Shown one piece after another: positions 10,901 to 55,224 of a stretch of 64,000 nucleotides of DNA. The notes below the pieces were generated by a model. That model had not been told where the DNA came from. It saw nothing but the letters and a program-made list of their open reading frames with translations, and did not search any database. Origin of the DNA: Trypanosoma brucei (taxonomy: Eukaryota); NCBI GenBank assembly GCA_000002445.1, contig CH464491.1, positions 3,808,001-3,872,000 of the forward strand, in the 5' to 3' direction. Positions within the stretch are counted from its first letter, which is position 1, and every line of letters begins with the position of its first letter. Both the position numbers and the translations under genes were made by a program.

Positions 10901-10942
10901 ATGCATTTGCCTACCGTTTCAGTCATTTGTATTTCTATAGAC

Positions 10943-12154: not shown

Positions 12155-12284
12155 CAGTTTGTTTTGTGTGTGTCAACAGTTCTTTATTTGCAAATACGGA
12201 GGTTTGTACTGACTTCTTTGTCAATGGGTATTCGTGCAGGTGTACGTGTAGTGCTGTCTCTTTATTCCTGAAGTTATTGCCATT

Positions 12285-13394: not shown

Positions 13395-13495
13395 CTGCAA
13401 TTCTAATGAGTGCTCTCCTTTTTGTTGTATGGAAACACTTATTCTGCTTACGCGATCCAAATATTTCTCATAAACTTTTAATTTTTAAAGTGAGA

Positions 13496-14872: not shown

Positions 14873-15006
14873 TGTTTTTGTTTGACGTTGGTGTTATGGT
14901 GATGAATCTCTTTGTTTGACCTGACTGATTAAGGCGAAAATAACGCTGCTGATAACTTTGTACCTCCCTTTTCCACCTTTTACCTCTTAAGATATAAACA
15001 ACAACA

Positions 15007-16374: not shown

Positions 16375-16576
16375 TTTGATTCTATGCCACCAACTATATT
16401 ATGTTATGCCATGTTTTTTTATTTCGTTTCTTTGTTGTGTTTGAAATGATATGGTGCATGCATATATGCATATACATGACTGCATCACTGTGTATTTGTG
16501 TTTTTCTCACGATATGAAACTGTATTAATTACCCTTTAGATATTTTCTTCTCTCATTTAGATAAACAATAAAGGAA

Positions 16577-22700: not shown

Positions 22701-23864
22701 AGTTGTGCAGATGACTGAAACGTAGTGCCCCATGAACATGCGCTCCACGAGGGTCCTGTCATTTGCTGTCATGGCGGCGTGGTGGTATGCGATACCCAGC
22801 AGAAGCATCGTTCGCAGCTGTTTATCATTTGCGGAGGATGCCAATCGCTGGACCTCCTCACTGGCGCACAACTGCCGTTCGCAACCTTCCCGTGCTGCCG
22901 CCTCGTTCAGTTCTTCCGTAATACGCCTCGCGGAATTCATGGTTTCTCCGCGTGACGCGCAAAACACCAGTGTCGGACGGCCCTCGCTGTACCGCCGAAT
23001 CAATCCAAACAGTTTGAGGGTGAGGAAACGGTCGAACGCGAAGGGATTGCTTGAAGTGCTGGGATACGACACCACCCGCAGTGTTAGTGGCAGAGGGCGG
23101 TCTGCTGATGTAAACGAAAATACCCCTGCAGGGGGAACCTGAAGCCACTCAGCGAAATCTTCAATATTGGGGAGAGTTCCGCTGATGGCAACAAAACGGG
23201 TTCGACAAACCTGCGGCCCGCGGGTCGTCATAGATAATTTTATTGCCTTCATGCGACTCACTACTGCCTCCAACGCTGCGCCGCGCTCCTCACTGACAGT
23301 GTGAACCTCGTCTAGCATCAAAAGTGCTACGGAGGCCACAAGGTTCCACACAACACCTTCTTTCCATCGCCGTGTAATGCCGTCCCAGCGCTCAGGCGTT
23401 GTGATGATGATATCCGTTTGGAACACTTCATCCATAATTGCATCAACCGTTCGCATGGCTTCCTGATCCCCCGTCTCCATTACAACTGAAAGCGCGGGGA
23501 ACCGCTCGCGCCACTGCGTGTACTTTTCAAATGCGAGGGCCTTCATTGGGCATATGTACACTGCCTTTCTATTCGTAGGGCTATTTGCATATTCCTTGTT
23601 CCCGGAAGCGGCATCAACCTCATCATCAGCATTTGGGGGAAGCGCCGCATCGGAACCCACTGTGTTCAGTGTTAAACGGTCCTTGAACAGTCGAAGCATT
23701 GCCGCCTCCAGCAACGCTGTCTTTCCGCTCCCTGTGGGGGCAGCAACCACAACGTTAAAATCGTTCTGAATTATTGCTGGTATAACTCGCTCTTGCACGC
23801 GCGTAAAGTTTGTGTGAGGAAAATACGATGCGAGGGGCCCTAGGCAATCGCACAAGATTGGCAT
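19773..23864 (-). CDS. Ski2-family DExH helicase with winged-helix and Sec63 module (Mer3/HFM1-like) and long low-complexity C-terminal tail
   Basis: Motif I 'AAPTGSGKT' and motif II 'DEVH'. 'QMSGRAGRPG' is motif VI. A winged-helix segment follows, then a Sec63-like HhH 'IKQIEGIGENMAKAL'. A single helicase cassette is present. The ORF runs to 23999, but the first 45 residues are low-complexity, so the Met at 23864 is the likely start. Confidence 0.65.
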   Translation of the reverse strand: MPILCDCLGPLASYFPHTNFTRVQERVIPAIIQNDFNVVVAAPTGSGKTALLEAAMLRLFKDRLTLNTVGSDAALPPNADDEVDAASGNKEYANSPTNRKAVYICPMKALAFEKYTQWRERFPALSVVMETGDQEAMRTVDAIMDEVFQTDIIITTPERWDGITRRWKEGVVWNLVASVALLMLDEVHTVSEERGAALEAVVSRMKAIKLSMTTRGPQVCRTRFVAISGTLPNIEDFAEWLQVPPAGVFSFTSADRPLPLTLRVVSYPSTSSNPFAFDRFLTLKLFGLIRRYSEGRPTLVFCASRGETMNSARRITEELNEAAAREGCERQLCASEEVQRLASSANDKQLRTMLLLGIAYHHAAMTANDRTLVERMFMGHYVSVICTTTTLALGVNLPAHLVIVKGTTFFKNGNRDDLPLSEIAQMSGRAGRPGLDTHGVALVLTTDDKAYLYKPLQHGDTCTTVESRLHQNMIEHVNAEVALRTIHNLSLGVEWIKTTFFWIRLRRCPRRYGIIFSTKQEEDDFDREQFADQLMRRMLAELEKQGCVAIGRDALKAGDVILNESATQTLQDRSPSSTGCRDVSDVNCAVESTRVGRAMARRYILFKTVETLNRELLHRFSHQSGRQGAPQIMGAAMAEEEGQIQQKTGESFTLHQVLRVFCHSSEFDGLRLRQGDKKHLNELNKVIRFPLNCGMRGGREVREDWHKVYVLIQAHLDRVAVSDFSLRNDCVRLWTVAPRVARFVVDYATTHPCFSLIQQSSLLCRCIEQGTWWDGLIIKQIEGIGENMAKALHEGGIKNFSDVLQANPRKLEALCGKNPPFGTDLQEKCHSRPMYNLALEHVTEAGTVRVVVSYKAGVSTRRDPPLEQCHMILLVGDLELDRTHLLRQIDCRTANRRPLVFTFQVSPGYRGQIMGSLTNGNFLGNDCNATLKVGGVEAGDSVKLQTATGFAQQPKHRTTAEKMQGTLKKTPDDVKVTDRNADRDSINEPVPHNRRSTEPFVTTPHQVRGDTSVIADQCASDLEGGEIGTTSAERGAHSAAVGCDDEATVVKTKMADSESSRRRDTEAGQTDEAFKYLLERKAQIASSMGIRVVSSPFGYKRRRENKENGSGDSPETRWSPQISCKEGDDMLLGGMEVVLPKTLSPPPNPVTDVGRGGARPSKRFRFNVQGVSPYTTVGRHAHYQGCYGDTRAAATHPIVNTIESGVSPLFPHTTPPATYSTGHPTFQRSIFECPHASTPPHRTGVVHQLRVTTNAATSGRQLSHVGVDAYRQSTFSKAECFAPFTWGPRCVANASGAFAHGSAPQLPLGGSVACFGEVPRAEPSPLRRARPTEFGGYTSHNGVVDPSIRRGVVRHTTVHRGWW

Positions 23865-24288
23865 CAGCACAACCGCCTGAGGGGTGTTTGTGGGAAGGCG
23901 GCTATTCAACACAAATCCAAGAAGTGAATAAATGAAAAGTGAGCAATAAAATTTTAGAAGGATATACTCCACTGGAACACAGAGAGAGCGATAAACCATT
24001 AGGTCGTAATTGTATCAACAGCAGTGGGCATCGTGATGCCGCCCATGGCTTCCGCGGCAGACCACATGAAACCAAATATGCATTCCTGCATATTTTTTTT
24101 TACTACCACCAGAGCCACCACGTTTATTCGTACACCGCGCCAACTGTTGTAATACTGGCAGTTGGGGAATAAGCACTTTTCCATCACGCGCAAACATTTC
24201 CCTCTGCAGTGGAGGCAGATGCAATAGGATTGGCACAGGCAGTCAAGGGCGTCAAAACCAGCAAACACAATCTTTCCATCGTGCATCT

Positions 24289-31893: not shown

Positions 31894-34800
31894 TCACAAC
31901 CACGCCATCCACCAAATGTACATTTCAGATATGTTTTCGATGGCGGATGAGTGACTGATCAACCGGGAGACCTGACCTTCACAACCCAATGCGAGTGTAT
32001 CTTTTTCTTTGGAGGGATTGTAGAGGTCCAAAAATCCATCGAGGCGCCGTGAGACGCGACCAATCAATTGCTTTGGATCAAAAGACCTCTGCCGCTTCGA
32101 CTGTTCGCGCATCCATTCCACTAATGGATCATGAAGTAAAGTTTCCACAACACTCATAACTGCAGTTTTGTTCTTCATTTGACAGCGCAACGCAGCCTGA
32201 CAACAGGCACGGAAGGGACCATCGACACCCAAAACCCCCATTCCATCAACAACGTTTTGTGTGAGACGAAACCGCACTCGTTCCGGAACCTCCAGCGTTT
32301 CTCCCTTGTCGAACATACACGCAAAATCAACATGCATTAATTCCCCAGTGCGAACGTCAATCATAAGGTTTTCACCGTGTCTATCCCCCAACCCAACGAT
32401 GTGTCCCGCAATGCTCCACAGCGCAGTTGCTTGTGTGTAAATTGTACGTGCGTGATACCAGTCTTGGTGACTGCGAAAGTTACTGTAGAACCAAATATGA
32501 AACACCGGTGGGGCCCTGGGGAAAATAAACCTTTCAAACATGTCCAACTTCTTCATAATCCCACTGTCAACCTTTGCTTTCCATGCCCTGACGTTGGAGA
32601 TACAAACGCCCGTACCATCGATCGCATAGCACTCCTCCACTCCTTTACGAAAAGGGACGAGATTGTTCACCCACTCAATTATGGCACAGTCGTCGTTGAG
32701 AGCTGAAACAGCGTATCGGCGTAATGCAAAACGCTTGCGCCTCGCCTCCGGGTCTGAGAGAAAAAATGTATTCATCAGTGTTGCAATCTCCATCATTCGC
32801 ATATCTTTCCGCGGTTCGTCCCTCGATTTACACAGAAAGGATACAGGTTCCCCCTCGCTACTGACGACCGTAATGCGCTTCGGTTTTTGCAGAGAACTCA
32901 TGATGTTAACCTTTGGTATGAATTCTTGGAAGGTTGCAGAACCCGCAAAGACGCCGCTCTTACTTGGTATGTGAAGCACGTTTGGTGAGAGATTTGCTGT
33001 AGTAGGTAGCAATACCTTCGTTGTGGTAAATATCTTTTCCATTCGCTGAATAAATGGTCTCCCTGCTAGTGATGGCTCACTTGAACGGTTACCATTGGTG
33101 AGTTCCCCCACGGAACAATTGCACAAATCAATCAGCGACTTGAAGACAATAATCATGTTGTCCACAAGTTTCTTTTCATTGGCGGATAATCTTGAATAGG
33201 GTTCTAAAATACCGCGCCGCGCCACCTCGCCACGGCTTGCTTGTTTACTACGGTCAATAGGTAAAACCTGCCACAGACACTGTTGCGGGAATGTTTTCAT
33301 CAAGTTAACGACGGTTTTTGTTATAATGTTCACTACATGTTTGCTTTCATGCCCAATGCGGGAGAGTAGCTGGGGAAGCGCCGTAATAAGGAGTTGTGGA
33401 GAGAGTTTGGTCTCTTCCACAAGAAGAAAGCGCTCAATCATATCGGCCATTTTCTGCAAGGAGGGCGCTACAATATTCGAATCAGGATAGGCTTCGGCAG
33501 CACTACTTGCAAGGGAGGAAGAGCAATTCAGCCACAAGTTGAGCATACGGGGCAGCGAAATTAACACGGTTTTGCATCCCAACTGCAGGGCCATTCCGAA
33601 ATGCTTGATAGCTAGTAGTACGTAAGTTTCCACTGCTTCTACTTCCTTCCTCTCAAAAGTTTCCCTCGTGCTTTTGGCGGCGTCGCTGCTTGATTGAAGA
33701 AGAGAACTGTGCACGGAGTGGTAAACCGTTTCATAGAATAGTGCAAGGTGATGATGCGCCTTTTCCGATGGATGCATGACCAGGGCGAGCTCATAGGAGT
33801 CGACAACCTCCTGAGGTGTTTGATAACTTATGTCTTGTTTCCACCGAGTTAGAAGAACGCGCAGCTTGGCACGAATTTCTGGTGGGATACTTTCGTCACT
33901 GGCTGCATCCTCCGCAAACTCAATGGCTTGTTTCGACATATTCATTTCATAGAGAAGCTTCGCTGGCGTTGTCCAGTACGATGGAGAAGTGAATTTGTTG
34001 TTTAAACTTGCTTGCTTCACAGCACTAAGGGCGGGTTCAAGAAATCCCTCGTTGCGAAGTAGTTTCACATGACTCATCCACGTTTTGCTCACTTCTTCTT
34101 CCATGCTGAACGCGCGGAAGATGGAACGGTGCAGCGATAGTAGAAGCTCTTGTGTGTCCAAGGTCGTCTCAGTTAAGGATGCCCGACGCTGCAACGTTGG
34201 CCCCAGTTCCTGCATCTTCTTTGTATCCCGCAAACCTGTTGCCCGAAATGATACCACGGGATCACTTGGATCAGGTGAAACTTGTGCCATGCTGGTAGCG
34301 ACGGCCACGGCGGCAGATTCGATGTCAGTCAAGGCGTGAAGGAAAACTACATGCGGATACACTTGTGCATAGCTCTCGCGGCACGCCGCACGTATTATGG
34401 GGGCGATTTTCATCCGCTGAAATAGGCAAGCTGCGAAAACATCGTGTAGCGTCCCTCGCCTCTTGAGCATTTTGTTCAGCGCCACCATTGGCAAAGCCAA
34501 ACTCACAGGGAGGTCTTGGCGGGCCTGGACGCTGTCCCACTCCCCTAAGCGCCATGCGGCTTCATTAGCGTAGTTTTGCAGAGCAGCCAACTGTGTCTGG
34601 CGACACCACGTGGCGCTTTGGAGAGTGCTCGGACGCGGCGAATCCTTCAGGAGTGCCTGACTGTACCTGGACATGAGGTGCAGCTGTCCCAGCTGCTGCA
34701 TGCATCGCAAGGCTGTGAACTGGTGGTTTATGCTCTGTGGTCGTTGCTGAAGGACCAATTCACATGCCTGAAGGGCCTGTACCCACTCTCCATTGTTCTC

Positions 34801-37800
34801 GTGGGAAAAAGCAGCGTCTTCGGGATTGTGATCTTGCATCCTGTGGAGGCTTCTGGAGGAGTCCCTGTCGTTGAGAGCCGCAAATATGCGTTGCAACGAA
34901 ATACCCTTCCCAACCACGTCCTGTACCTTTGGGAGATATCGTTGACCCTCCAAGCAGCGTAACGCACGCATGCTGCTACCAATACCTATTGCTGCTTCCA
35001 CTTTCGATGTCCACGGGACGCGTTCGAAAAAATCCCGAATCACTTTGACAACCAAGTCGGCCTTTTCATTATCGATTCCTCCCTCATGTCCTGTCCTGCT
35101 CTTCCGTGGAGTGCGACGCAGTTCAAACAACAGGTGCTCAACACCCTCTAATACGTTGAATATTTGTTGAACGTGCTCTTCTAAAGAGGTTACGTTAGCC
35201 ATGTGTGTATTCACTTCCATCATGAGATTCTGCGAGTGCAGCGACGCTGCCTTGCAACTTTCCTGCACACCAGTTCTTGACGCCGCTTCAAGCAACAAAT
35301 TTACCTCGGTAACTATGGCGTCTGTATCTTCTTCATCCCCTTTGCTAATTATGTGAATAATCATGTGAGGTAACAAGTAACTTATAAGGGTCTGTTCACC
35401 CTTTGCCATGTTTCGTAGTGCCTTCATCATTTGTCCGAAAACTCCCCTACATCGCAGCACTAGATCGCAAAACCACACGTTGAGCCACGTGTTAATCTCC
35501 ATGCCAGACACATATACGGGGCTTCGGAGTTCCGTTCGCTGCAGTACACAAGCAGTGTACTTAGTCGTGGTATATCCTTCAATCATCTGCCGACAGGAGG
35601 GCTCCAGTTCCATCCACCATGAATAGCGTTGCAACTCCTCTATATGCAGTGCCTCATCATTCTGCAACGTAGGGTAACATTTGGACTCTCGCTCAGCGTT
35701 AGCGAATACGCGCAGCAACTCTTGCACCGCAAACGCGGCACGATCGTGCATTGTTGGGTCGGCAGTGTTAGCAAGAGCGCGCGGGCAATGAACGCTCAGC
35801 AACTCCACGGCGAATTCCCTCCAATGAAGAACTTCAGTCGGATGCGATAGTAATAACTTTCGTGTGGAGGATGACACGCGACCACTTAAGTGAAGAGACA
35901 CCGGCGACAAATTGTTCGAGCCTGTGTGCTGACAGCCGTGACGTAGCATCGATCCGTTTGAGTGTCCAACCGCACCAATCATGCCCACGCAAGCGAGGAC
36001 GTACTGAACATACTCATCGTGCAGCTCGAAGACGCAGTTCAACAAGGTTGGTATAAGTTGAGGATGCTGTCTTGCCGCACAAGTGAGTTCCATCCGACCC
36101 GCAACGTCTGTCGTTGAAAGATACTGGTAAAGGGCACGGACAAATACCTTTTTGCACTTTGTTGAACTACTCTGTACGACTGAAAACAAACCAGTTACAA
36201 TAACGTCTACACTTCCTTTTGCACTTAAGGGAGCGTTTCCCGATTCGTACGTTTGGCATTTGGCGGATGATCCATTGCTTCTTAGCCGACGAATAAGAAT
36301 ATTTGAGCGGCTCATAATTTTAAAGTACAACTCCCAAAAGGGTTCAGACTTTGAACGCTCATACACCACTCGCATCGCCTCATCCAAATGAAGAAGGGCC
36401 TCAATATCGCCTGGCTCCGTTAACGCCTCCATACTTAGTAAGTCAACGACAATAGAGGGTGAGTGTTCACTAAGGTACCTAGGTGTGCATCGACTGAGCA
36501 ACTCACGCCACACGGAACAGACAACACGCACCAACTGGGGTCGGAAGCTGCAGAAGTCTAGTATCGCCGGCAGCTTCGACGCTATCACTGTTGTGTGACT
36601 GCCAAGGCACCGGATAAGGGAGATCAGGCCATACAGCCAACGTTGCACTGTGTGGACCGACACATCGACAGTTTCTGCGGTTACGCGGTTGTTTATGCCA
36701 ACGCACTGTGATACTGTGTCAAGTACGGAGAATACATGCTTGGTTAGTGACCCTCCGTCCACTGTGTCATTGGTAACTTGCATTTCCAACACCAGCTTTA
36801 TGTCAGTAACAGAGGGTCCACATTCTCCAATACACAGAGCCATTTCGACAGCAAGGTCAAACTCTGACAGCCCCCCAACATCATCTTCACGCTTCTCTGC
36901 TTCAATATTGTTTCCTACCGCTACTCGTTTTTGTTCGGTGAGGCTGCCCCTATCCCTTGACAAAACTTCCCGGCCGCCATGAAGGTACATCAGACTTGCT
37001 ATTATAGACCCTAGTGAGCGGTTAACCATGTCGGGTAGATCACTTAACCGCTTTGACAAAAACTGGAGGACCTTCTTGACGTTGTCCAGTCTCTCCGAAG
37101 CACCATTCGCCGCATCACAAAGTAAAATATATGCCATTATCATGGGGAACTTAGACATGAGCGAAAGTGGCTCTCCCAATAGTTCATTGATGCGCAGCAA
37201 CTGCTCTGCACCATCGTCGGCAAGTAAAGAACGCGGAAGAATGTCGTCAAGGCCCCGCATGACAACTTCCCGGACGTTTTTACCCAGAAGGTAACACATA
37301 GCCCTGAAGAAAACGGTGTGAATGATATCGGGATCACATGAAAACAGATAGTCCATAGACCACGAAAAGCGAGACATCACGCCATGAGCCACTTCGAGAG
37401 CCGTCGCCTTTGTAGCATACATGTCCCCATCAAGTTCACAAATGGCTCTGCACACGTTGATAACATCACGGCACACTTTAGTATTGCAGTGATCTCGAAG
37501 TGATGAAATGGTGGTTAAGGAAAGGGAGGACGGTGAGAAATCACGTAGCGTGCCGCTGCGCGGCCCCTGCTGAACAAAACCTTCCCACTCCTCCGTGAAA
37601 GCCGCCCGAAGCGTTTCCAGTTGCCTTAACAGTAGTGAAGGCCCAGTACGCTCATCTGCATTTGAATGTTTAGAGATGGTATCCTTTAAAACAGCGGCCA
37701 CATCAACATTGCCGCTGCGCTCAAGAAGAACACGTAAAGATAACGCCGCGTAGCCAAGACGTATTACCTCGTTCCTGTGGCCGAATGCATGTGCCAGCAC

Positions 37801-40503
37801 AAAGTCTGTCGAGGAAGACTTACGTGCACTCAAAAGAACGTTACATAAACACATCAAAGATATGAATGCATCCTGAACGGCTCCGTTATTTGTTGCGCAT
37901 TTATCGGGTACGAGTTGCTGAACCGCGCAAGCTAGATCGTACACTACCGTATCTGTTCTGCCTGTAAGTTCCATTACTGCGGCAACCGGCTGCTTTAACA
38001 CGAATGGATTTACCTCGTGCTCATTAAGCAACTCACTGCACTGTGCTTTTGGTTTTTCTCCATCATACGGTTTTACTTCAACGACATCGTCATTGGTAGA
38101 AGACGAGGAAACCACTTCCACGCCCGTCGTTGCTGTTTCATCCGATGAAGGCTCAACCTCACAATAATCCGCCTGAGTTGCCCGCATCCTCTCAAAAATA
38201 GCAAAAAGTTCGGTCGTGATACCTAACAACTGATTGAGAAAATGCAGCAACGCGTCATTACCGTACGTGGCACCAGACTTGGCCAAACTTACCGCAAAAG
38301 ACGTAGACCAACCCAGTGCATCAAGCAACTTTTGTGATGCAATGACAGTAGCACTGACTCTGGCGGTATCAAGTGGCCCATCTAACGGGGAAGGAGTAAC
38401 GTCGTTTCCGCTCTGCTGGTAGTTGCGAGTCACATGTTCTCGCCACCCACGAAGTACGCCACTGATTCGCCACATCGCAACGTCTTGCTCACCAGCACGC
38501 ACATTGATCACCTCTACGATGAGGCGAGCGATATTGTTGGTGTAGCTAAAGTCCGTTATGGGAAGTCTACGCACAAGTTCAGCGTACAGTAGTGAATACC
38601 GAAGCGGTGAATCACCGATACGAACTGTAACTTTCCCGGAGGTGAGATCCCGCAGCGAATCCAACACTACCGACTGCATTGTTTCTTTTTCACACCCGAA
38701 ACGGAGAATTATTATAGCAGCGTCCAATATACTACTGTCATACTCTGTTACCAGCTGTTTCCACACACAACGGAAAGTTGCTGCCTCTTCGCACAGTATT
38801 GCAGAAGCATTTGCTTTAGCTAAGAGGTAATCGTTGTTCCCCATAACCGCGCGACGGCGTTGTAATATTTTACGCAGCAATGACGATACAGCATCACGTG
38901 GGAAGAAACACAAAAGTTGGTGTACCACACTTGCCTCCACTGACATATCGTGGAAATAGATGGATTCGGGCGTCACCCGCCTGGTGACCAACGCATCCAA
39001 CACATTTTCCCCAATCCTGTAGAAGGTTTCCTCAAAACGCGGCAACAAATCTTGTTTGCATGAGAGAGCCCTTTTGAGCAACGCCAACAGCAACAAAGCT
39101 GCCTCGCGCTTTTCCGCGTCCACCTGTCCAGTTGAACAGCAAGTAATCGCAGAAACTGTGTCATCGCACATGTTTGTATTGAATAATGAATTTGTCAACC
39201 ACTCACTTTGACAAAAGGGGGACTCCCTCTGACCAACTTTCCTTGTTTGTCCAGTGTTTTGCTGAGTAAAACTCTTCCCTACGTGGGGAGGAAACAATTC
39301 TTGTCGAACTTCGCACTGCCTCTCCCTCTTCTGATCAACTAACCAACGGAGTAGAGCTAGTTCTTTACTCCACCCCTTCTTCACGTGCGCACGTGACATC
39401 TCGTACACATGTTGCACAAGTGTGTAAAGGATCATCGGCGCATGAAGTTCCTTCACGAGTAAGTCACTCATCAACATCGCGTGAAGTAGTGATGCAGCGG
39501 TGGTGTGAAGCGCGAAGGCCAGGTTTACTCCCTCTTCACCGTTGCGGCGTTCTCCATTACCGACCGTCTCCTTCCACGATTCATACATTGAAGTGGACAA
39601 GCCAGCAGCCACATTGACGGAAAGAAGACTGCAGGCCAAACGAAGGATACTTTTGCGTTCCCTCCACGTCGGCAAAAGAGGAAAGTTTCCTGTTAGCAAC
39701 ATATTTATTACCGTGCAAAAACATTGAGCAACACTAACCACTTCGTAGAGGCTTTCCGCGACAATTGTAGTCCTGAAGAGCTGTCTCGTGTCTCCCCTAA
39801 ATCCCAAAACTTCAGGCAGCCTAAGAACCTGTATCGTACACCGTCCATACCCGCTTCGTCGGCCAGGAACAGTTGTGAATACGAACGCTCCGATGACCTC
39901 CTCCTGGACGATGACTTTAAACAGCTGCAGTAGAAGCGGCTGATAACAATTGTACAAAACGTCAAAAGCGTGGTGAAGTACCTTAAACAAAATATCGCCT
40001 ATGGCGCATGTCTTTGAAGGTATACCCAAGATGGGAAACAGTGAAAAGAGTGTCAAAATGCAGTGAATGAGGATAGCCGGGGCAGCTACGACTATGCGGG
40101 TTACTGTGGCATACATGCGAAGAGTGAGCACCGAATACCTTGCCACACGCTGCGGGTTCCCCAGCATCAATTCGCGCACCTCCCCGGGGAGCTGTGCTAC
40201 ATTTGGTGAAGCAAACCCAACAACATAGGGCCTCAAGTCAAGAACAAGGTTCCACATCTTCCCTTGCAGGGCTTCGCTTGGTTTGTCTGCACCAGCTGCA
40301 ACCTCATCCCTGAGCGCTGCCGCACGTTGCCCAAACTCCTTTAGGCGAAGCCTAAAGGTAGACGAGTCCTCTGTAGAGTCACGAGGCCGCTTCGACGCGG
40401 TGGAAAATCGATTATGTTCGGTCACGTTACCCGGCGATGTGACAATGGTAACAACGTTTTCCGCATCTATCTCCATCCACTTGCAGCTGAAAATCGAATG
40501 CAA
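31894..40503 (-). CDS. ATR: PIKK-family protein kinase ATR (ataxia telangiectasia and Rad3-related)
   Basis: 2869 aa. C-terminal PI3K-like kinase domain with catalytic loop 'GLGDRHGENLMID' and 'HVDFACMFDKG'. FATC-like tail '...YIWWMAWL'. 'DEPRKDMRMMEI' and 'RRYAVSALNDDCAIIEWVNN' match the ATR-specific block ('DDLRKDCRLMEF', 'IPLNEECGIIEWVNN') rather than ATM, TOR or DNA-PKcs. Confidence 0.85.
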   Translation of the reverse strand: MHSIFSCKWMEIDAENVVTIVTSPGNVTEHNRFSTASKRPRDSTEDSSTFRLRLKEFGQRAAALRDEVAAGADKPSEALQGKMWNLVLDLRPYVVGFASPNVAQLPGEVRELMLGNPQRVARYSVLTLRMYATVTRIVVAAPAILIHCILTLFSLFPILGIPSKTCAIGDILFKVLHHAFDVLYNCYQPLLLQLFKVIVQEEVIGAFVFTTVPGRRSGYGRCTIQVLRLPEVLGFRGDTRQLFRTTIVAESLYEVVSVAQCFCTVINMLLTGNFPLLPTWRERKSILRLACSLLSVNVAAGLSTSMYESWKETVGNGERRNGEEGVNLAFALHTTAASLLHAMLMSDLLVKELHAPMILYTLVQHVYEMSRAHVKKGWSKELALLRWLVDQKRERQCEVRQELFPPHVGKSFTQQNTGQTRKVGQRESPFCQSEWLTNSLFNTNMCDDTVSAITCCSTGQVDAEKREAALLLLALLKRALSCKQDLLPRFEETFYRIGENVLDALVTRRVTPESIYFHDMSVEASVVHQLLCFFPRDAVSSLLRKILQRRRAVMGNNDYLLAKANASAILCEEAATFRCVWKQLVTEYDSSILDAAIIILRFGCEKETMQSVVLDSLRDLTSGKVTVRIGDSPLRYSLLYAELVRRLPITDFSYTNNIARLIVEVINVRAGEQDVAMWRISGVLRGWREHVTRNYQQSGNDVTPSPLDGPLDTARVSATVIASQKLLDALGWSTSFAVSLAKSGATYGNDALLHFLNQLLGITTELFAIFERMRATQADYCEVEPSSDETATTGVEVVSSSSTNDDVVEVKPYDGEKPKAQCSELLNEHEVNPFVLKQPVAAVMELTGRTDTVVYDLACAVQQLVPDKCATNNGAVQDAFISLMCLCNVLLSARKSSSTDFVLAHAFGHRNEVIRLGYAALSLRVLLERSGNVDVAAVLKDTISKHSNADERTGPSLLLRQLETLRAAFTEEWEGFVQQGPRSGTLRDFSPSSLSLTTISSLRDHCNTKVCRDVINVCRAICELDGDMYATKATALEVAHGVMSRFSWSMDYLFSCDPDIIHTVFFRAMCYLLGKNVREVVMRGLDDILPRSLLADDGAEQLLRINELLGEPLSLMSKFPMIMAYILLCDAANGASERLDNVKKVLQFLSKRLSDLPDMVNRSLGSIIASLMYLHGGREVLSRDRGSLTEQKRVAVGNNIEAEKREDDVGGLSEFDLAVEMALCIGECGPSVTDIKLVLEMQVTNDTVDGGSLTKHVFSVLDTVSQCVGINNRVTAETVDVSVHTVQRWLYGLISLIRCLGSHTTVIASKLPAILDFCSFRPQLVRVVCSVWRELLSRCTPRYLSEHSPSIVVDLLSMEALTEPGDIEALLHLDEAMRVVYERSKSEPFWELYFKIMSRSNILIRRLRSNGSSAKCQTYESGNAPLSAKGSVDVIVTGLFSVVQSSSTKCKKVFVRALYQYLSTTDVAGRMELTCAARQHPQLIPTLLNCVFELHDEYVQYVLACVGMIGAVGHSNGSMLRHGCQHTGSNNLSPVSLHLSGRVSSSTRKLLLSHPTEVLHWREFAVELLSVHCPRALANTADPTMHDRAAFAVQELLRVFANAERESKCYPTLQNDEALHIEELQRYSWWMELEPSCRQMIEGYTTTKYTACVLQRTELRSPVYVSGMEINTWLNVWFCDLVLRCRGVFGQMMKALRNMAKGEQTLISYLLPHMIIHIISKGDEEDTDAIVTEVNLLLEAASRTGVQESCKAASLHSQNLMMEVNTHMANVTSLEEHVQQIFNVLEGVEHLLFELRRTPRKSRTGHEGGIDNEKADLVVKVIRDFFERVPWTSKVEAAIGIGSSMRALRCLEGQRYLPKVQDVVGKGISLQRIFAALNDRDSSRSLHRMQDHNPEDAAFSHENNGEWVQALQACELVLQQRPQSINHQFTALRCMQQLGQLHLMSRYSQALLKDSPRPSTLQSATWCRQTQLAALQNYANEAAWRLGEWDSVQARQDLPVSLALPMVALNKMLKRRGTLHDVFAACLFQRMKIAPIIRAACRESYAQVYPHVVFLHALTDIESAAVAVATSMAQVSPDPSDPVVSFRATGLRDTKKMQELGPTLQRRASLTETTLDTQELLLSLHRSIFRAFSMEEEVSKTWMSHVKLLRNEGFLEPALSAVKQASLNNKFTSPSYWTTPAKLLYEMNMSKQAIEFAEDAASDESIPPEIRAKLRVLLTRWKQDISYQTPQEVVDSYELALVMHPSEKAHHHLALFYETVYHSVHSSLLQSSSDAAKSTRETFERKEVEAVETYVLLAIKHFGMALQLGCKTVLISLPRMLNLWLNCSSSLASSAAEAYPDSNIVAPSLQKMADMIERFLLVEETKLSPQLLITALPQLLSRIGHESKHVVNIITKTVVNLMKTFPQQCLWQVLPIDRSKQASRGEVARRGILEPYSRLSANEKKLVDNMIIVFKSLIDLCNCSVGELTNGNRSSEPSLAGRPFIQRMEKIFTTTKVLLPTTANLSPNVLHIPSKSGVFAGSATFQEFIPKVNIMSSLQKPKRITVVSSEGEPVSFLCKSRDEPRKDMRMMEIATLMNTFFLSDPEARRKRFALRRYAVSALNDDCAIIEWVNNLVPFRKGVEECYAIDGTGVCISNVRAWKAKVDSGIMKKLDMFERFIFPRAPPVFHIWFYSNFRSHQDWYHARTIYTQATALWSIAGHIVGLGDRHGENLMIDVRTGELMHVDFACMFDKGETLEVPERVRFRLTQNVVDGMGVLGVDGPFRACCQAALRCQMKNKTAVMSVVETLLHDPLVEWMREQSKRQRSFDPKQLIGRVSRRLDGFLDLYNPSKEKDTLALGCEGQVSRLISHSSAIENISEMYIWWMAWL

Positions 40504-50427: not shown

Positions 50428-51969
50428 TCAGCTAATAACCTCAACAGAAGAACATGATGACGTCCCCCCGTCTTCGACGACAATAATTGGGTCATTATCG
50501 CTCTCAATCGGATCGCTTTGACTTACAGATAATACGGCGCCCTCAGGCTGTGAACAGAGAGGTGTGGTTAATTGCCTGATATCTGGTGGGGACGCTAATG
50601 GATTGAGCCTGGAGAATAACTTCCTTTCACAGAACCTTAACCTCCTTAAACAAATGCCGCATCCTTGACTGCTATCACAGCATGCCGGTTCACCTGGAGT
50701 ATATACGCGGCACGTTACTCGATAATCACTAAAATCAACTGGTTTTAATAACGCCAGAGCCTCCCCTCCTCCGGCCGCTGCCCCATTGGGAGCACCACCG
50801 CACCACCGACTTGCAAGCGAGTTTCTACAGCGGCTGATGCTACCGGTGCTATCTGCAGTGGCACAACACCACATCATCGCCTCTTCACCGTATTCAACAC
50901 CTTCCGACTTAATGAGTCCATGGTTATTGTCGAAAAGAAATCGTGTCACTGGGCTCGATAGCATCCGCAGGATCTCCTCTTGCTCACGGCTACGCCGGGG
51001 GTCCATGTAAGGGTTCACAAACTTTGCAAAAAAGGGGAAACGTCGATTGTCGCAAATTGGTTTGGAGTTAGATATATCATACGGAAAAATCAGTGGCTCC
51101 ACGTTAATCCTTGAATAGTCGAACTCGCCAAACTTAAAGTCTTTTGTAAGTGACTTTGGTGGACCATCGCGGATCCACTCCACTACTTGGAGAAGTTTCG
51201 GGTGTGCCCATCTCCAAAACTCGTCACTGCGGTAAACTCGCCATGCAACAACTTGGCAAACTGGTTTATCCAGATAGACAAAGAAGTCGCATACATCCAC
51301 ATCGGCAATCGCCATCTGACCTTGCATTTGACAAAGGTACTGTTGAGGTATTCCAAAGGGGTGACATAAGCGTTTGGTGCTGTCGTATAATGCGTAATAG
51401 GGGGATTTGATTTCCAACAATCTTGCCAAGCGTTTCGATGTGGAAGCCGTGGGTGAATCGGGAGACGGTGTGGTGGCTAAAGAATCATCCCTTACACTCT
51501 TTGACCTGAACGGAATTCGGATAGATATTGGATTCTCTTGATGTTTCCCATTCTTTACACCCATCAACTTGGTTTCATTTCCCTTTCGCGATGGCGACAT
51601 TAACTGCGAAGATACCGGTGGCGCGTCCTCAAAGACACGTCCATCAGGAGAGCAACCAAGAAGCCTTCCTTCCAAAAGATAGAAGCCACCGTCACTAACA
51701 GCTGTAGAGGTTAATAATTCATACAGCGCACGCGACTTTGGCTCAGTGTTTATACCGTGATCAGTAATTGCGTTGCCTGTAAATTCCAACTCCGTGCCAA
51801 CGATATTTCGGACATAATCCACAAAGTGAACAATGTGTCCGCTAAGCCCGAGAGCCATGCCAAATTGCGATGCGGTGAGCCCAAAAGGCACCTCTTTTTT
51901 CCATTCTAGTTTCTTCCTGGGTTGGGCCATTTGGTGTTCAGCTAACGCCGCCACTGGCACGTGTATCAC
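50428..51969 (-). CDS. YqaJ/lambda-exonuclease-like PD-(D/E)XK nuclease domain protein with C-terminal Cys-rich region
   Basis: 'FGLTASQFGMALGLSG' matches the YqaJ N-terminal motif, 'LLGCSPDGRV' the SPDG motif, 'LEIKSPYY' the (L)EIKxP catalytic motif, and 'QYLCQMQGQMAIADV' the QMQ motif. The C-terminal 130 aa hold more than 12 Cys ('CCATADSTGSISRC...CCDSSQGCGICLRRLRFC'). Confidence 0.55.
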   Translation of the reverse strand: MIHVPVAALAEHQMAQPRKKLEWKKEVPFGLTASQFGMALGLSGHIVHFVDYVRNIVGTELEFTGNAITDHGINTEPKSRALYELLTSTAVSDGGFYLLEGRLLGCSPDGRVFEDAPPVSSQLMSPSRKGNETKLMGVKNGKHQENPISIRIPFRSKSVRDDSLATTPSPDSPTASTSKRLARLLEIKSPYYALYDSTKRLCHPFGIPQQYLCQMQGQMAIADVDVCDFFVYLDKPVCQVVAWRVYRSDEFWRWAHPKLLQVVEWIRDGPPKSLTKDFKFGEFDYSRINVEPLIFPYDISNSKPICDNRRFPFFAKFVNPYMDPRRSREQEEILRMLSSPVTRFLFDNNHGLIKSEGVEYGEEAMMWCCATADSTGSISRCRNSLASRWCGGAPNGAAAGGGEALALLKPVDFSDYRVTCRVYTPGEPACCDSSQGCGICLRRLRFCERKLFSRLNPLASPPDIRQLTTPLCSQPEGAVLSVSQSDPIESDNDPIIVVEDGGTSSCSSVEVIS

Positions 51970-52211
51970 AAAAAAGAAAAGAAAAGAAGATGCTGTTCAT
52001 TCAACAAACAACACCTTTGGCACCGAGCCTTAGGATAATACTGACCAATCACCATCAGAAAGGAAACTAATCACAACTGTAAGACGTGTTTACTAATAAA
52101 AGAGATTAATGGCCAAACGATAATCAGTAGACTGTTTTCCTCTTCAACTACTTCCGAACGCCTCCACGACTAATCGTTGTAAAACCGTAATTAAAGACTA
52201 GACACGCCACA

Positions 52212-52237
<26 letters not shown>
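52212..52237. repeat. (AT)n microsatellite in low-complexity gene desert
   Basis: 'atatatatatatatatatatatatat'. Further (AT)n runs at 53209-53230 and 4815-4833. Confidence 0.9.
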
Positions 52238-52242
<5 letters not shown>

Positions 52243-55224
52243 TACGAATAAGTAGTATAAATATATATTGTGTGGAATATGTGTAACATTTTCCCCTAAA
52301 CGGTTGCACGGTATCGTTGGCGCGTCATCAAAATGAAATATTCCGCTCTGGCAGTACACGGCATTGCCTTTTTTTGTTATGTTTCCACAGATACAAACAT
52401 GAGCATGTGTCGTCATTAATTCCTCCTCAACTAAACTATGGAGTAACACATTGTTTTGAACATAATAACAGTAGGAGGAGGAAGTAGGAGGAGAACCAAA
52501 ACTACGGATGCAAATATATATATATATAATAAAAGATGTATGAGAAAATAAACACTAAAAGAATAATTTTTTTTTAAAAAAAAGAAGAAAAGGAAGAGGA
52601 AAAAAGACATAATGAGAGGATGGGCTCCGAATTGGAGTGGCATATTGAGATAGATGATGAAAAACATGAGGACAACAGCCTCTACAAGGATTGGAAAAGG
52701 AAACAAAAAAGAAAAAAAGAAACAACAACAACAACAGCGACGCCAAAAGGGGGAAAAAAAAATGATATAGTAACGGAGAGAAGGGAATGGAAAGTGAACC
52801 ATTCCATAAGGTAGTGCAAAGTCGTTGTGAAAAAATACAAAAGGTTAAGAGGGAGGGGAGAAGAAAAAAAAGAGAGAGAAAACAACAACAACTACCGACC
52901 TTCACCCGTGCCGTCTGAAGTACAAGATTAAACCAATCAAAAAGAAAAAAAGAGGGATTGTCGGGTCTCCACAAAGTGGAAAAGACAAACTTTTATTCTC
53001 CTGCGTATATTTATTTTTTTTTCGGAATATTTTCAGTATTCGTCTTTTTTTTTTTCGTTTACCCCCAAAAAATTTTTTTCCTTTTATTCTTTTCTTTACC
53101 TGCTTCATTCCTATCCTCCTAATTTGATCAAAAGATGTCCCTTTAGATCACCTTTTTTTTGTTTTCTTTTGCATATGTATGTAAATAAATATATTTAAAT
53201 AAATATAAATATATATATATATATATATATCATTTGTCTTTCATTTCCATTACTTCTTTTTTCTTTTTTTATAAAAAAAAGGGGGTTGCGTCACTGCTCC
53301 ATTTCTTCACGTTCTTGCGGTCCTCCTCTTGAGGTGATACGAAATAAAAAAGAGTTCATATCTGAAGGAGGAATTGCTGCGTGGACAATCAAATGAAGAA
53401 AATACGGGGAATCCACACGATACGCAGAAATGACAAAAAATGAATTAAAAAAAAAAAAGAAAACACTCCAACACTACAAAAAGTGAAGAAAGTTAAAAAA
53501 ATGATAAAAAAAACAACAAAAACTCCCACATGTTCACATCAGGCCGCAGAAATTCGAGTCGAGTTCAGTTAACTGTAGTCGAATATGTGTCTGTATGTCT
53601 GTAAATATGTCTGTAAGTATGCTGTTCTTTTTTTTTCCTCTTTGGGATTCCGTTGTGCCTTATTCGGATATCATGAATCCAACACATTCCGTCACTACTC
53701 CACTCCTTTAGAATCAAGTGGCGGTCAAAATAAATTATTTATATATTATAATAATTATTATTATTAAAGAAAAAAAGGAGGAGTTGAGGAATGACACGAG
53801 AGTAAAGAAACGGAAAACATGAAATAATGACGCCGTTTTTCCCCCCCCCCCCATCAGATGTGTGACTGATGCACTCCCGTATTGACCTCAAACAGAAGAA
53901 GTGGAGGAAAAGAGAAGAGGGGAGAAAAGAAAAAAAGATCAAAAATCAAAAAACAAAAGGAAAAGGAAATGAAAATAGAAATGGGAAAAGAAGAAGAAAG
54001 GAAAGGGAATAGTGTAAAGGGTGCTTCACGCGCACTCTTTTGCGATCCTTTCCTTTCCTTTACTTTTTCTTTTCCCATTTCTTTTTTCTTCTATGCGACA
54101 AACAGCAATGAATTTATAAATTATAGGCTGCTCTGTTATAAAATGGTGGGAATGAAGGGGGAGTGGGGGAAAAAAAAAGAACCGATAGAAAGTGGAGGGT
54201 AAAAGGGTTTTAAAAAAAAAAATGTGGCCATAATAAATACAGAGGGAAGAGAAGGGTAAAAATGTAATAAATAAGTAAAATATTTTTATTAAAAAAAAGC
54301 CAAAGCAAAACAAACCATAAAGAAACTAACAGAAAAGAAAAGAACAAAAGAATGACATATACCGAAATAAGTCTAAAGGAAAATGAAATCAAAATAGAAA
54401 AAAAAACAAAAAAATTTTTTTTGAAAAAAAAATTACTGGCCACAATTCAAAATTTTTTTTTCTTTTTTGTTTACCCCCCCCCACTTCTTTGGCACCTTCA
54501 TGACTCTATCGAAACCTTGTGAGCAGAAATTCTCACATTTTTTGTTTTATTTTCCTTCTCTAAACGTGCGGAAGATGTGAGTGAAAGGAGTAACGAAGAG
54601 GGTGGACGGAAGTTTCTTATTATTGTTATTACAACTTTCCTCTCCTATTTTTAAGGTATTTTTTTTTTAATAATCTCATTTTCTTTAAAAATAAAAAAAA
54701 ATCGATTACCACCGCATTTGCTTTCATCATGTTTCTGTCTTTGTTTCTTTTACTTTTTTATTTGCGTATGAGAGTATGCATGTATTATTTTCTCCTCTAT
54801 CATATTTTTCTTCTTTCTTTCTTTGCTTTAGTTTTGGTTCTATGGTAATTCCGTTTTCGCTCGACTCACTTTAAGTCCCTGTTTCCCTTACCCTCCGGCA
54901 ACTTGGAGGGGAACGAAGCAAGAAACATAAAACCAATTATTTGATATTTATTTGTTCCGTCTCCATACGCACCCCCCTCTGCTCCACATTCTAACCGCTA
55001 TCGTTGTCTATTTATTTATTTTTGTTTTTTTTGTTTTTCATTAATCATCATTCACTCTTTTATCCATTCAATGTTGTTTTCTTGGAGGGAGGAAAGGTAG
55101 AAAGAAGGAAAGAAGGAGGGAAATTTTTACTTGTTTTTTTTTCCTCTTTTTTGTCAAGTAAACTCCAACGCCACCAGTCAGCAGCGTGAGAATGTGAGTA
55201 AAACACTGTTGAATTGTTGCGACC

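What the first reader, a model, noticed from the sequence alone, without database searches (positions are those of the whole stretch)
50428..51969. Eukaryotic YqaJ/lambda-exonuclease-like nuclease fused to a Cys-rich C-terminal module
The N-terminal half reproduces the phage YqaJ-type PD-(D/E)XK exonuclease motifs in the correct order: 'LTASQFGMALG', 'GCSPDGRV', 'LEIKSPYY' and 'CQMQGQMAIADV'. The C-terminal about 130 residues are packed with cysteines in CC, CxxC and CxxxC spacings, suggesting a zinc-binding domain. YqaJ-domain genes in eukaryotes are sporadic and often trace to viral or transposon (Helitron-like or Maverick-associated) origins. Here it sits as a single-copy gene inside a housekeeping PTU, suggesting domestication, possibly for DNA-end resection or RNA processing.
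Basis: partly seen in the sequence, partly recalled or inferred. Interest (0 to 1): 0.5.

Follow-up and report, generated by a model that had tools for sequence, protein, structure and literature searches.

The report
Conserved kinetoplastid lambda-exonuclease-like nuclease gene
This is an already annotated but unstudied Trypanosoma brucei gene (Tb927.11.14740) for a lambda-exonuclease/YqaJ-type DNA-cutting enzyme that all kinetoplastids inherit vertically; the cysteine-rich "zinc module" proposed for its tail is not conserved and is probably not a real domain.

Summary
The ORF is real, on the minus strand. The likely CDS is 50428-51930 (500 aa); the 13 extra N-terminal codons from a GTG are probably 5' UTR. 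It is 100% identical to a T. brucei-group protein already named "YqaJ-like viral recombinase domain containing protein" (Tb927.11.14740).

**Nuclease call: solid.**
- Pfam YqaJ E=1.8e-18, over the whole profile.
- The AlphaFold model has pLDDT >90 for the core.
- Best structural matches are LHK-Exo, mimivirus R354 and lambda exonuclease.
- E63, D96, K175, Y198 and Q201 are invariant in 40 orthologs; E173 is kept in 39.

**Zinc-module idea: not supported.** Of 12 C-terminal cysteines, only C355 and C407 are conserved within Trypanosoma and none across the family. The CC/CxxC cluster lies in a variable loop of a small, weakly SH3-like beta domain and is shared only with T. congolense.

**Family features.**
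- A disordered insert of variable length (about 12-212 aa) splits the catalytic hairpin.
- The Arg that lambda exonuclease and R354 use near the 5'-phosphate is absent.
- Orthologs span kinetoplastids, with diplonemid relatives.
- The downstream FtsH-like neighbour is the same in Leishmania, and there are no transposon marks.

Most likely it is an active Mg2+-dependent DNA-end nuclease; its cellular role is inferred only. Ordinary to moderately interesting.

The parts
50428..51930 (-). Likely CDS of Tb927.11.14740: 500 aa plus the stop codon at 50428-50430.
   Evidence: 100% identical to the public 500-aa protein P0001. Ortholog N-termini align at this Met. Translation checked. Gene ID fixed through neighbours PMI Tb927.11.14780, Tb927.11.14730 and Tb927.11.14750, and the name 'Recombinase-like domain protein'.
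51931..51969 (-). 13-codon GTG extension included in the finding's coordinates; probably 5' UTR.
   Evidence: A polypyrimidine tract abuts the GTG and AG dinucleotides follow it. No ortholog has this extension.
51607..51930 (-). Nuclease core, first part (aa 1-108). Contains W10, the VGTELEFTGNAITDH loop (aa 44-58, 51757-51801), E63 (51742-51744) and SPDG with catalytic D96 (51643-51645).
   Evidence: pLDDT 85-98. W10, T46, F50, T56, H58, E63 and D96 are invariant in 40/40. Aligns to R354 W182, its activation loop C215-H229 and D268, and to lambda exonuclease E85 and D119.
51457..51606 (-). Disordered insert inside the catalytic beta-hairpin (aa 109-158). Carries the short conserved motif ISIRIPFRS (aa 135-143).
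   Evidence: pLDDT <50. The SPDG-to-LLEIK distance varies from about 12 to 212 aa among orthologs, 73 aa here. P140 and F141 are invariant in Trypanosoma, and [VI]PF is seen in the Leishmaniinae and other long-insert orthologs.
50926..51456 (-). Nuclease core, second part (aa 159-335). Contains RLLEIK with E173 and K175 (51406-51414), Y198, QMQGQM (51313-51330), the CDFF strand and a family-specific conserved extension (aa 225-335).
   Evidence: pLDDT 93-99. R170, K175, Y198, Q201, Q203, Q205, C214 and D215 are 40/40; E173 is 39/40. Aligns to R354 E289, K291, Y313 and Q316.
50593..50883 (-). Small beta domain (aa 350-446), weakly SH3-like, conserved across the family.
50629..50700 (-). It lies in a variable loop of the beta domain.
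   Evidence: pLDDT 67-69. C417, C418, C424 and C427 are shared only with T. congolense; C434 is unique to T. brucei. The loop varies in length and composition across the family.
50431..50559 (-). Disordered Ser/acidic C-terminal tail (aa 458-500). Contains two SUMO-interaction-like hydrophobic cores: IIVV (50476-50487) and VEVI (50434-50445).
   Evidence: pLDDT 32-43. The paired motif [VI]I[VILN][VI][DET]...S[VI]E[VI] occurs in 6 of 9 Trypanosoma species; it is absent in T. cruzi, T. rangeli and T. conorhini. Reading it as a SUMO-interaction motif is inference only.

Best explanation
The gene (Tb927.11.14740, T. brucei group) encodes a catalytically competent, metal-dependent PD-(D/E)XK nuclease of the YqaJ/lambda-exonuclease family. 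It is an old, vertically inherited cellular gene of kinetoplastids.

**Shown.**
- Architecture: a lambda-exonuclease-like core (aa 1-108 and 159-335) is split in its catalytic beta-hairpin by a disordered, lineage-variable insert. The core is followed by a small beta domain and a disordered acidic/serine tail.
- The metal-binding and catalytic residues are under strict conservation: E63, D96, E173, K175, plus Y198 and Q201.
- The cysteine richness of the tail is a T. brucei/T. congolense peculiarity of variable loops. It is not a conserved zinc domain.

**Inferred mechanism.** Like its nearest solved relatives (mimivirus R354, LHK-Exo, lambda exonuclease), it binds a DNA end, threads one strand past the D96/E173/K175 Mg2+ site and degrades it to leave single-stranded DNA. 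It therefore acts as an end-processing or resection nuclease.
- It most probably works in the nucleus. There is no room for an N-terminal mitochondrial presequence, and many orthologs carry strongly basic, nuclear-localisation-like runs in the insert.
- It lacks the Arg that lambda exonuclease (R28) and R354 (R186) place near the 5' phosphate. Its closest solved relative is a dimer, not a trimeric ring. End preference, polarity and oligomeric state may therefore differ from lambda exonuclease.
- The beta domain may add DNA or partner binding. The tail may recruit the enzyme through short linear motifs.
For: **Family membership and fold.**
- Pfam YqaJ E=1.8e-18, full-length profile match.
- Full-length AlphaFold model: pTM 0.77, 298 residues with pLDDT >=90.
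- Foldseek against PDB: 3syy LHK-Exo E=5.9e-8 (target TM 0.72), R354 E=1.4e-7, lambda exonuclease E=1.8e-6 to 7e-5 (target TM about 0.6).
- Viral structure library: top hits are giant-virus and phage YqaJ nucleases.

**Active site.**
- Catalytic residues invariant in 40 orthologs; E173 in 39/40.
- Residue-by-residue correspondence to R354 D268/E289/K291/Y313/Q316/W182. Alanine substitution at D268, E289, K291, Y313 and W182 nearly abolished R354 exonuclease activity.

**A real, expressed, vertically inherited gene.**
- Ribosome-profiling evidence of translation, with higher translational efficiency in bloodstream forms.
- About 31 ortholog clusters, then a sharp score drop to diplonemid proteins.
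- The same downstream FtsH-like neighbour in L. major.
- Only low-complexity repeats flank the gene.

**Localisation clue.** The N-terminus is part of the fold (helix 5-13, W10), so there is no cleavable presequence.
Against: - No biochemical or genetic data for this protein were found in the searchable library. Supplementary tables of three genome-wide T. brucei studies gave no hit, although at least the localisation tables are stored truncated.
- Substrate (DNA or RNA), polarity, oligomeric state and localisation are all inferred.
- The residue aligned to the lambda R28/R354 R186 5'-phosphate-side Arg is V14 here, and H/V/F/T/I in the family.
- The stricter phage model TIGR03033 is matched only partially: 35 bits against a cut-off of 68.
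- A 73-aa insert sits between the catalytic D and ExK, so the geometry of the active-site hairpin rests on a prediction.
- T. brucei itself has no strong basic nuclear-localisation-like run.
Confidence: 0.6

Rival explanations
1. One reading: the C-terminal about 130 residues form a cysteine-co-ordinated zinc-binding domain fused to the nuclease. At minimum, this would be a zinc knuckle (C417/C418, C424, C427) specific to T. brucei and T. congolense.
For: The tail has 7.3% Cys with CC, Cx5C and CxxC spacings. Four of these Cys are kept between T. brucei and T. congolense although the two proteins are only about 52% identical.
Confidence: 0.12
2. It is an RNA-processing or RNA-decay nuclease, acting like the PD-(D/E)XK enzymes DXO/Rai1 or the herpesvirus SOX alkaline exonuclease, rather than a DNA-end nuclease.
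For: Some PD-(D/E)XK nucleases work on RNA; the superfamily survey records RNase activity for viral alkaline exonucleases. Two orthologs carry the automated name 'oligoribonuclease'. There are weak Foldseek hits to the DXO-like cap-binding domain of eIF3d, E about 0.2. Kinetoplastid gene expression is largely post-transcriptional (general knowledge).
Against: All strong sequence and structure matches are to DNA exonucleases of the YqaJ family, with E-values 5-7 orders of magnitude better than the eIF3d hits. No RNA-binding domain is detected. The basis of the 'oligoribonuclease' name is unknown.
Confidence: 0.13
3. It is a mitochondrial nuclease serving kinetoplast DNA replication or repair, a functional analogue of the PD-(D/E)XK enzymes MGME1 or Exo5.
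For: The family appears restricted to kinetoplastids plus diplonemid relatives, two groups with unusual mitochondrial genomes. MGME1 appears among the weak structural matches, E about 0.1.
Against: The N-terminus has no presequence. Residues 5-13 form a helix of the fold, W10 is invariant, and acidic residues occur at positions 9 and 13. Many orthologs carry nuclear-localisation-like basic runs in the insert. The adjacent FtsH-like gene is mitochondrial, but neighbours in kinetoplastid polycistrons are not functionally linked (general knowledge).
Confidence: 0.12
4. It is a recently acquired or still mobile viral or transposon gene, for example the YqaJ ORF of ISL2EU/Spy-type transposons or a giant-virus insertion.
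For: YqaJ ORFs occur in eukaryotic PHIS-superfamily transposons and in giant viruses. Giant-virus YqaJ proteins are among the best structural matches, at 18-21% identity.
Against: Orthologs are present across the kinetoplastids sampled, with one cluster for the T. brucei group. The FtsH-like neighbour is conserved in L. major. There are no inverted terminal repeats and no transposase among nine neighbours. The Bodo saltans virus homolog is no closer than other giant-virus homologs.
Confidence: 0.03

Closest known systems
YqaJ / lambda exonuclease family (Pfam PF09588; lambda Exo, PDB 1avq/3sm4)
   Same: The same PD-(D/E)XK fold and motif order. Lambda E85, D119, E129-x-K131 and the Q-rich helix correspond to E63, D96, E173-I-K175 and Q201/Q203/Q205.
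   Different: - The 5'-phosphate Arg (R28) is not conserved.
- A 73-aa disordered insert lies between D and ExK, where lambda has 9 intervening residues.
- There are about 165 extra C-terminal residues.
- No single-strand annealing partner gene lies next to it.
- Trimeric ring formation is untested.
- It is a eukaryotic chromosomal gene.
Mimivirus R354 (PDB 5yet/5yeu), a 'Cas4-like' YqaJ-type dual nuclease
   Same: The best solved relative by sequence, E=1.6e-4 with the family profile. Shared motifs are RLLEIK, CDF, and the loop before HG, which is R354's activation loop. It is also larger than lambda exonuclease, with extra domains around the core.
   Different: R354 has R186 at the position of V14 here. 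Its accessory dimerisation and C-terminal domains are helical and unrelated in sequence to the beta domain here. R354 is viral and proposed to act in virophage resistance. Identity is only about 19%.
LHK-Exo alkaline exonuclease of Laribacter hongkongensis (PDB 3syy)
   Same: The best structural match: Foldseek E=5.9e-8, target TM 0.72.
   Different: It is a compact bacterial or prophage enzyme of about 200 aa, without the insert, the beta domain or the tail. Identity is 18%.
Cas4 / MGME1 / Exo5-type PD-(D/E)XK end-processing nucleases
   Same: The same superfamily and the same kind of job, trimming DNA ends. They give weaker structural matches: Cas4 E about 7e-3, MGME1 E about 0.1.
   Different: They belong to a different family within the superfamily. 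The Fe-S cluster cysteine signature typical of Cas4 and Exo5 (my own knowledge) is not found in conserved positions here.
YqaJ ORFs of eukaryotic ISL2EU/Spy (PHIS) transposons and of giant viruses
   Same: The same Pfam domain within eukaryotic or eukaryote-virus genomes.
   Different: There is no transposase and no terminal repeats, and the gene keeps its downstream neighbour and is vertically inherited.

Membership tests
YqaJ / lambda-exonuclease family (PF09588) | Profile score above the curated Pfam gathering threshold over most of the domain | tested here: met
   67.7 bits against a cut-off of 22, E=1.8e-18, profile positions 2-149 of 150. All ten distant orthologs and diplonemid relatives tested also pass.
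YqaJ / lambda-exonuclease family (PF09588) | Lambda-exonuclease-like PD-(D/E)XK fold | tested here: met
   The AlphaFold core has pLDDT >90. The top 13 Foldseek PDB hits are all LHK-Exo, R354 or lambda exonuclease, at E 6e-8 to 7e-5.
YqaJ / lambda-exonuclease family (PF09588) | Catalytic Asp and Glu-x-Lys plus the upstream Glu and the Q/Y helix | tested here: met
   E63, D96, K175, Y198 and Q201 are 40/40; E173 is 39/40. They align to R354 D268/E289/K291/Y313/Q316 and to lambda E85/D119.
YqaJ / lambda-exonuclease family (PF09588) | Arg four residues after the conserved Trp (lambda R28, R354 R186), lining the 5'-phosphate/exit pocket | tested here: not met
   The aligned residue is V14, and H/V/F/T/I in the family. 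K11 (K/R in 39/40) could substitute, but this is untested. The residue bears on lambda-like processivity; it is not part of the Pfam definition.
YqaJ / lambda-exonuclease family (PF09588) | 5'-to-3' exonuclease activity on duplex DNA ends; ring-shaped oligomer | not testable with these tools
   Needs enzyme assays and an oligomer structure. The nearest solved relative, R354, is a dimer with exo- and endonuclease activity.
Phage exonuclease/annealase recombination module (Red alpha/beta, YqaJ/YqaK) | Adjacent gene for a single-strand annealing protein (Red beta, RecT, ERF or Rad52-like) | tested here: not met
   Nine neighbouring ORFs give FtsH-like, PSP1, CLU, PMI, MIP-T3 and rRNA-processing domains or no hit; none is an annealase. 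Trypanosomatids are reported to lack Rad52.
TIGR03033 phage_rel_nuc (NCBIfam subfamily domain) | Score above the curated cut-off | tested here: not met
   35.1 bits against a cut-off of 68.05; only profile positions 101-151 matched.
   Among the 12 tail Cys, C355 is 8/9 and C407 is 9/9 within Trypanosoma, and 12/38 and 9/39 family-wide. The rest are present in 2 or fewer of 9 species. There is no zinc-finger Pfam hit, and the cluster lies in a low-confidence variable loop.
SH3-like beta-barrel (C-terminal domain, aa 350-446) | Significant structural match to SH3-like, Tudor or FeoA barrels | tested here: inconclusive
Eukaryotic DNA transposon carrying a YqaJ ORF (ISL2EU/Spy) | Terminal inverted repeats and a DDE transposase next to the YqaJ ORF; multiple copies | tested here: not met
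   Only AT-rich or polypurine low-complexity repeats flank the gene. There is no transposase among the neighbours. The T. brucei group gives a single protein cluster, and the downstream neighbour is conserved in L. major.

The most novel reading that the evidence does not exclude
The kinetoplastid/diplonemid YqaJ nuclease may be a lineage-specific DNA-end resection enzyme. It would feed the single-strand-annealing, microhomology and homologous-recombination repair on which trypanosomatids rely, since they are reported to lack NHEJ and Rad52. That could include the recombination behind VSG switching in bloodstream forms, where its translation efficiency is higher. Under this reading, the variable insert in the catalytic hairpin and the SUMO-interaction-like tail would act as regulatory or recruitment elements.
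Probability: 0.15. Interest if true: 0.65.

Novelty: new member of a known kind. Interest (0 to 1): 0.3.

Why it matters
Trypanosomatids repair double-strand breaks without classical end joining and without Rad52. African trypanosomes depend on recombination for antigenic variation. A conserved, apparently active lambda-exonuclease-like enzyme with no counterpart in the mammalian host is therefore a reasonable candidate for a missing end-processing activity, and possibly a parasite-specific target.

As it stands, though, the finding mostly re-derives an existing database annotation. What this analysis adds:
- The zinc-module idea is removed.
- The true CDS and architecture are defined: the insert in the catalytic hairpin, the small beta domain and the disordered tail.
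- The gene is shown to be ancient in kinetoplastids, with diplonemid relatives, and not a recent mobile-element capture.

Tried and rejected
- **Zinc finger or Fe-S 'iron staple'.** Rejected because the Cys positions are not conserved and no Pfam family is hit.
- **Transposon or viral insertion.** Rejected: no inverted terminal repeats and only low-complexity repeats, unrelated housekeeping neighbours, and a conserved neighbour in L. major.
- **Pseudo-enzyme.** Rejected because the catalytic residues are invariant. One distant ortholog, P0040, has LLKIK instead of LLEIK.
- **PP1-docking RVxF reading of RIPF in the insert.** Set aside because the consensus, as I recall it, excludes Pro at that position.
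- **Literature.** No paper on the kinetoplastid protein was found beyond one table entry.
- **Supplementary tables.** Searches of the TrypTag localisation map, the nuclear proteome and the DNA-damage RNAi screen gave no hit. The TrypTag tables are stored truncated, and the other two may be, so this is not evidence of absence.
- **Taxonomic names for distant orthologs and nearest outgroups.** Mostly unavailable because they are metagenomic, so the ultimate origin (phage, giant virus or ancestral eukaryote) stays open.
- **AlphaFold-database fold search.** Not available.
- **hhalign to lambda exonuclease.** It aligned only residues 36-98. The R28 correspondence therefore rests on the R354 alignment and on equal W-to-TAS spacing.
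Full report
**1. Observation.**
The window carries an uninterrupted minus-strand ORF at 50428..51969 (513 aa from a GTG) containing all four quoted motifs in the stated order.

- The first ATG is at 51930.
- All orthologs start at that Met with MAQ(H/Q)P.K..WK, and the public protein is the 500-aa form.
- A polypyrimidine tract followed by AG dinucleotides lies at and just after the GTG.

I therefore take the CDS as 50428..51930 and number residues from that Met. Coordinates were checked by translation. The tail is cysteine-rich: 12 Cys in the last 164 residues, 7.3%, against 0.8-5.3% in orthologs.

**2. Identity of the locus.**
The protein is 100% identical to a Trypanosoma equiperdum/brucei-group entry named 'YqaJ-like viral recombinase domain containing protein, putative'.

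- The neighbours are an FtsH-like AAA/M41 protease, a PSP1-domain protein, a CLU protein and phosphomannose isomerase.
- TbPMI is Tb927.11.14780, Tb927.11.14730 is a mitochondrial protein, and Tb927.11.14750 was studied in a PABP-interaction paper.
- Tb927.11.14740 is listed as 'Recombinase-like domain protein'.
- By gene order and name, the gene is therefore Tb927.11.14740.

That ribosome-profiling study reports higher translational efficiency in bloodstream forms (log2 1.70 and 2.08). This shows the gene is translated. The window has plus-strand genes up to about 17.7 kb and minus-strand genes from 19.8 kb onward, so the gene lies well inside a long minus-strand polycistron.

**3. The nuclease domain.**

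- Pfam YqaJ (PF09588) matches at E=1.8e-18, 67.7 bits against a cut-off of 22, over profile positions 2-149 of 150.
- The stricter phage model TIGR03033 is matched only in part and below its cut-off.
- By sequence, the closest solved proteins are mimivirus R354 and LHK-Exo.
- A full-length AlphaFold model built on 40 orthologs has pTM 0.77. Residues 1-108 and 160-335 have pLDDT above 90.
- Foldseek against the PDB returns LHK-Exo (E=5.9e-8, target TM 0.72), R354 (1.4e-7) and lambda exonuclease (1.8e-6 to 7e-5, target TM about 0.6) as the only hits below 1e-3. Cas4 and MGME1 follow far behind.
- Against predicted viral structures, the best hits are YqaJ proteins of giant viruses (Pithovirus, medusavirus, klosneuviruses, Bodo saltans virus; 18-21% identity) and of phages (10-17%).

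**4. Active site.**
In the 40-sequence family alignment, W10, T46, F50, T56, H58, E63, S94-P95-D96-G97, R170, K175, Y198, Q201, Q203, Q205, C214 and D215 are invariant. E173 is 39/40.

The HMMER alignments to R354 place:

- D96 on D268
- E173 on E289
- K175 on K291
- Y198 on Y313
- Q201 on Q316
- W10 on W182

In R354, D268, E289 and K291 hold the Mg2+. Alanine substitutions at D268, E289, K291, Y313 and W182 nearly abolish exonuclease activity.

The R354 'activation loop' C215-H229 aligns with V44-H58, one of the most conserved stretches of the kinetoplastid family. hhalign places E63 and D96 on lambda E85 and D119. This pattern argues for an active enzyme.

One difference stands out. The Arg four residues after the Trp (lambda R28, R354 R186), which lines the 5'-phosphate/exit side, is V14 here and H/V/F/T/I in the family.

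**5. Unusual architecture.**
Between SPDG and LLEIK, which are nine residues apart in lambda exonuclease, this protein has 73 residues. AlphaFold leaves residues 109-158 disordered. Across orthologs this spacer ranges from about 12 to 212 residues.

- It is shortest in the most divergent, probably free-living kinetoplastid sequences and longest in some trypanosomatids.
- A short motif [SF][VIF]x[IV]PF (ISIRIPF here) persists inside it.
- Many orthologs have strongly basic runs just before LLEIK. These look like nuclear localisation signals, but that is inference.

Residues 225-335 are a family-specific, very well conserved extension of the core.

**6. The C-terminal region.**
Two independent models predict a small beta domain at about 350-446, with confident strands and floppy loops.

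- The family alignment shows conserved strands (V.V..P.D[FW]..G.V and F..R.FF.SL) separated by a loop of variable length.
- The T. brucei CCDSSQGCGIC cluster lies in that loop.
- Only C355 (8/9) and C407 (9/9) are conserved within Trypanosoma, and neither is conserved family-wide. C417, C418, C424 and C427 are shared only with T. congolense.
- Pfam finds nothing beyond YqaJ in this protein or in ten long relatives.

The zinc-module interpretation is therefore not supported as a feature of the family. A zinc knuckle specific to T. brucei and T. congolense cannot be excluded.

The last 43 residues are disordered. They carry two hydrophobic cores with acidic or serine flanks, DPIIVVED and SSVEVIS. 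These recur in six of nine Trypanosoma species and resemble SUMO-interaction motifs. This is a hypothesis only.

Leishmaniinae and more distant relatives have a further C-terminal region of about 200-500 aa that Trypanosoma lacks.

**7. Distribution and origin.**

- A word-indexed search found 40 relatives. All the named ones are trypanosomatids.
- An exhaustive profile search of 1.84 billion representatives found about 31 ortholog clusters above 250 bits. Scores then drop sharply to proteins at 1e-37 to 1e-21.
- All five of the proteins in that range that carry an organism name are diplonemid (Lacrimia, two Diplonema species and Rhynchopus), and in these the YqaJ domain lies in the C-terminal half.
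- Next come generic 'phage-type endonuclease' proteins of about 290 aa from metagenomes, a starfish and a choanoflagellate.
- In L. major the gene is followed by the same FtsH-like gene as in T. brucei.
- Only low-complexity repeats flank the T. brucei gene.

The gene is thus an ancient, vertically inherited cellular gene of kinetoplastids, probably shared with diplonemids. It is not a sporadic or recent mobile-element capture. Whether the founder came from a phage, a giant virus or an early eukaryote is unresolved. Earlier trees of this family were also inconclusive.

**8. Mechanism.**
*Shown:* family membership, fold, intact catalytic residues, expression, vertical inheritance, the disordered insert, and non-conservation of the cysteines.

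*Inferred:* a Mg2+-dependent nuclease that engages DNA ends and degrades one strand, as lambda exonuclease, LHK-Exo and R354 do. It is probably nuclear, because the N-terminus is part of the fold rather than a presequence.

The missing Arg, the large hairpin insert and the dimeric nearest relative mean that polarity, 5'-phosphate dependence and oligomeric state cannot be copied from lambda exonuclease.

Trypanosomatids are reported to lack Rad52 and classical end joining, and to show extensive 5'-to-3' resection. That makes a role in break resection attractive but untested. Rivals are scored in the report sections: an RNA nuclease, a kDNA nuclease, and a lineage-specific zinc knuckle.

**9. 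Novelty and verdict.**
The domain call is already in public annotation. No functional study was found in the library available here.

The finding is a correct recognition of a known kind of enzyme in an uncharacterised, lineage-restricted family. One attached claim, the zinc module, does not hold. Interest is modest, at 0.3. It would rise if the enzyme proved to be a parasite-specific resection factor.

Noticed in passing
window 10901-17707 (+): A chromosome-internal run of VSG-related ORFs. 10901-12154 and 12285-13394 hit the A-type VSG N-terminal domain (E 1e-12 and 1e-9). 13388-14872 and 15007-16374 hit VSG_B (2e-51 and 5e-27). They sit just before a convergent strand switch, in a region of strong GC skew of 0.15-0.30.
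   Followed up: partly
window about 17700-19800: A convergent strand-switch region between plus-strand genes (1-17.7 kb) and minus-strand genes (19.8-64 kb). No tRNA gene was detected anywhere in the window.
   Followed up: partly
window 19773-23999 (-): A 1408-aa Ski2/Brr2-like helicase with DEAD, Helicase_C, winged-helix, Sec63 and helix-hairpin-helix domains. It may be a Mer3/HFM1-like DNA helicase.
   Followed up: no
window 52000-55200: A 3.2-kb stretch at 34-40% GC with no ORF of 200 aa or more, between the YqaJ gene and the PSP1 gene. It contains (AT)n tracts at 52212-52237 and 53173-53230 and many polypurine/polypyrimidine runs. It is presumably long UTRs and intergenic sequence.
   Followed up: partly
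window 31894-40503 (-): A very long ORF of 2869 aa (TTG start as listed). It was not examined.
   Followed up: no
L001 10001-12658 (L. major ortholog P0023) and other long orthologs: Leishmaniinae orthologs (about 885 aa) and more distant kinetoplastid orthologs (700-1050 aa) carry an additional C-terminal region of a few hundred residues, around the motif ...DCEGVVLVSDS.... It has no Pfam match and all Trypanosoma species lack it. The Trypanosoma tail motif IIVVED might be its relic.
   Followed up: partly
window 51502-51528 (aa 135-143, ISIRIPFRS): A short motif [SF][VIF]x[IV]PF is conserved inside the otherwise disordered, highly variable insert of trypanosomatid orthologs. Its function is unknown.
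   Followed up: partly
aa 93, 200 and 214 of the protein (window codons 51652-51654, 51331-51333, 51289-51291): Three near-invariant cysteines lie within the nuclease core, next to catalytic motifs: GCSPDG, YMCQMQ and ECDFF (37/40, 39/40 and 40/40). Only the CDF cysteine is shared with R354. A redox or metal role was not examined.
   Followed up: no
protein P0040 (distant ortholog, metagenomic): One ortholog has LLKIK in place of the catalytic LLEIK. It could be an inactive variant or a sequencing error.
   Followed up: no
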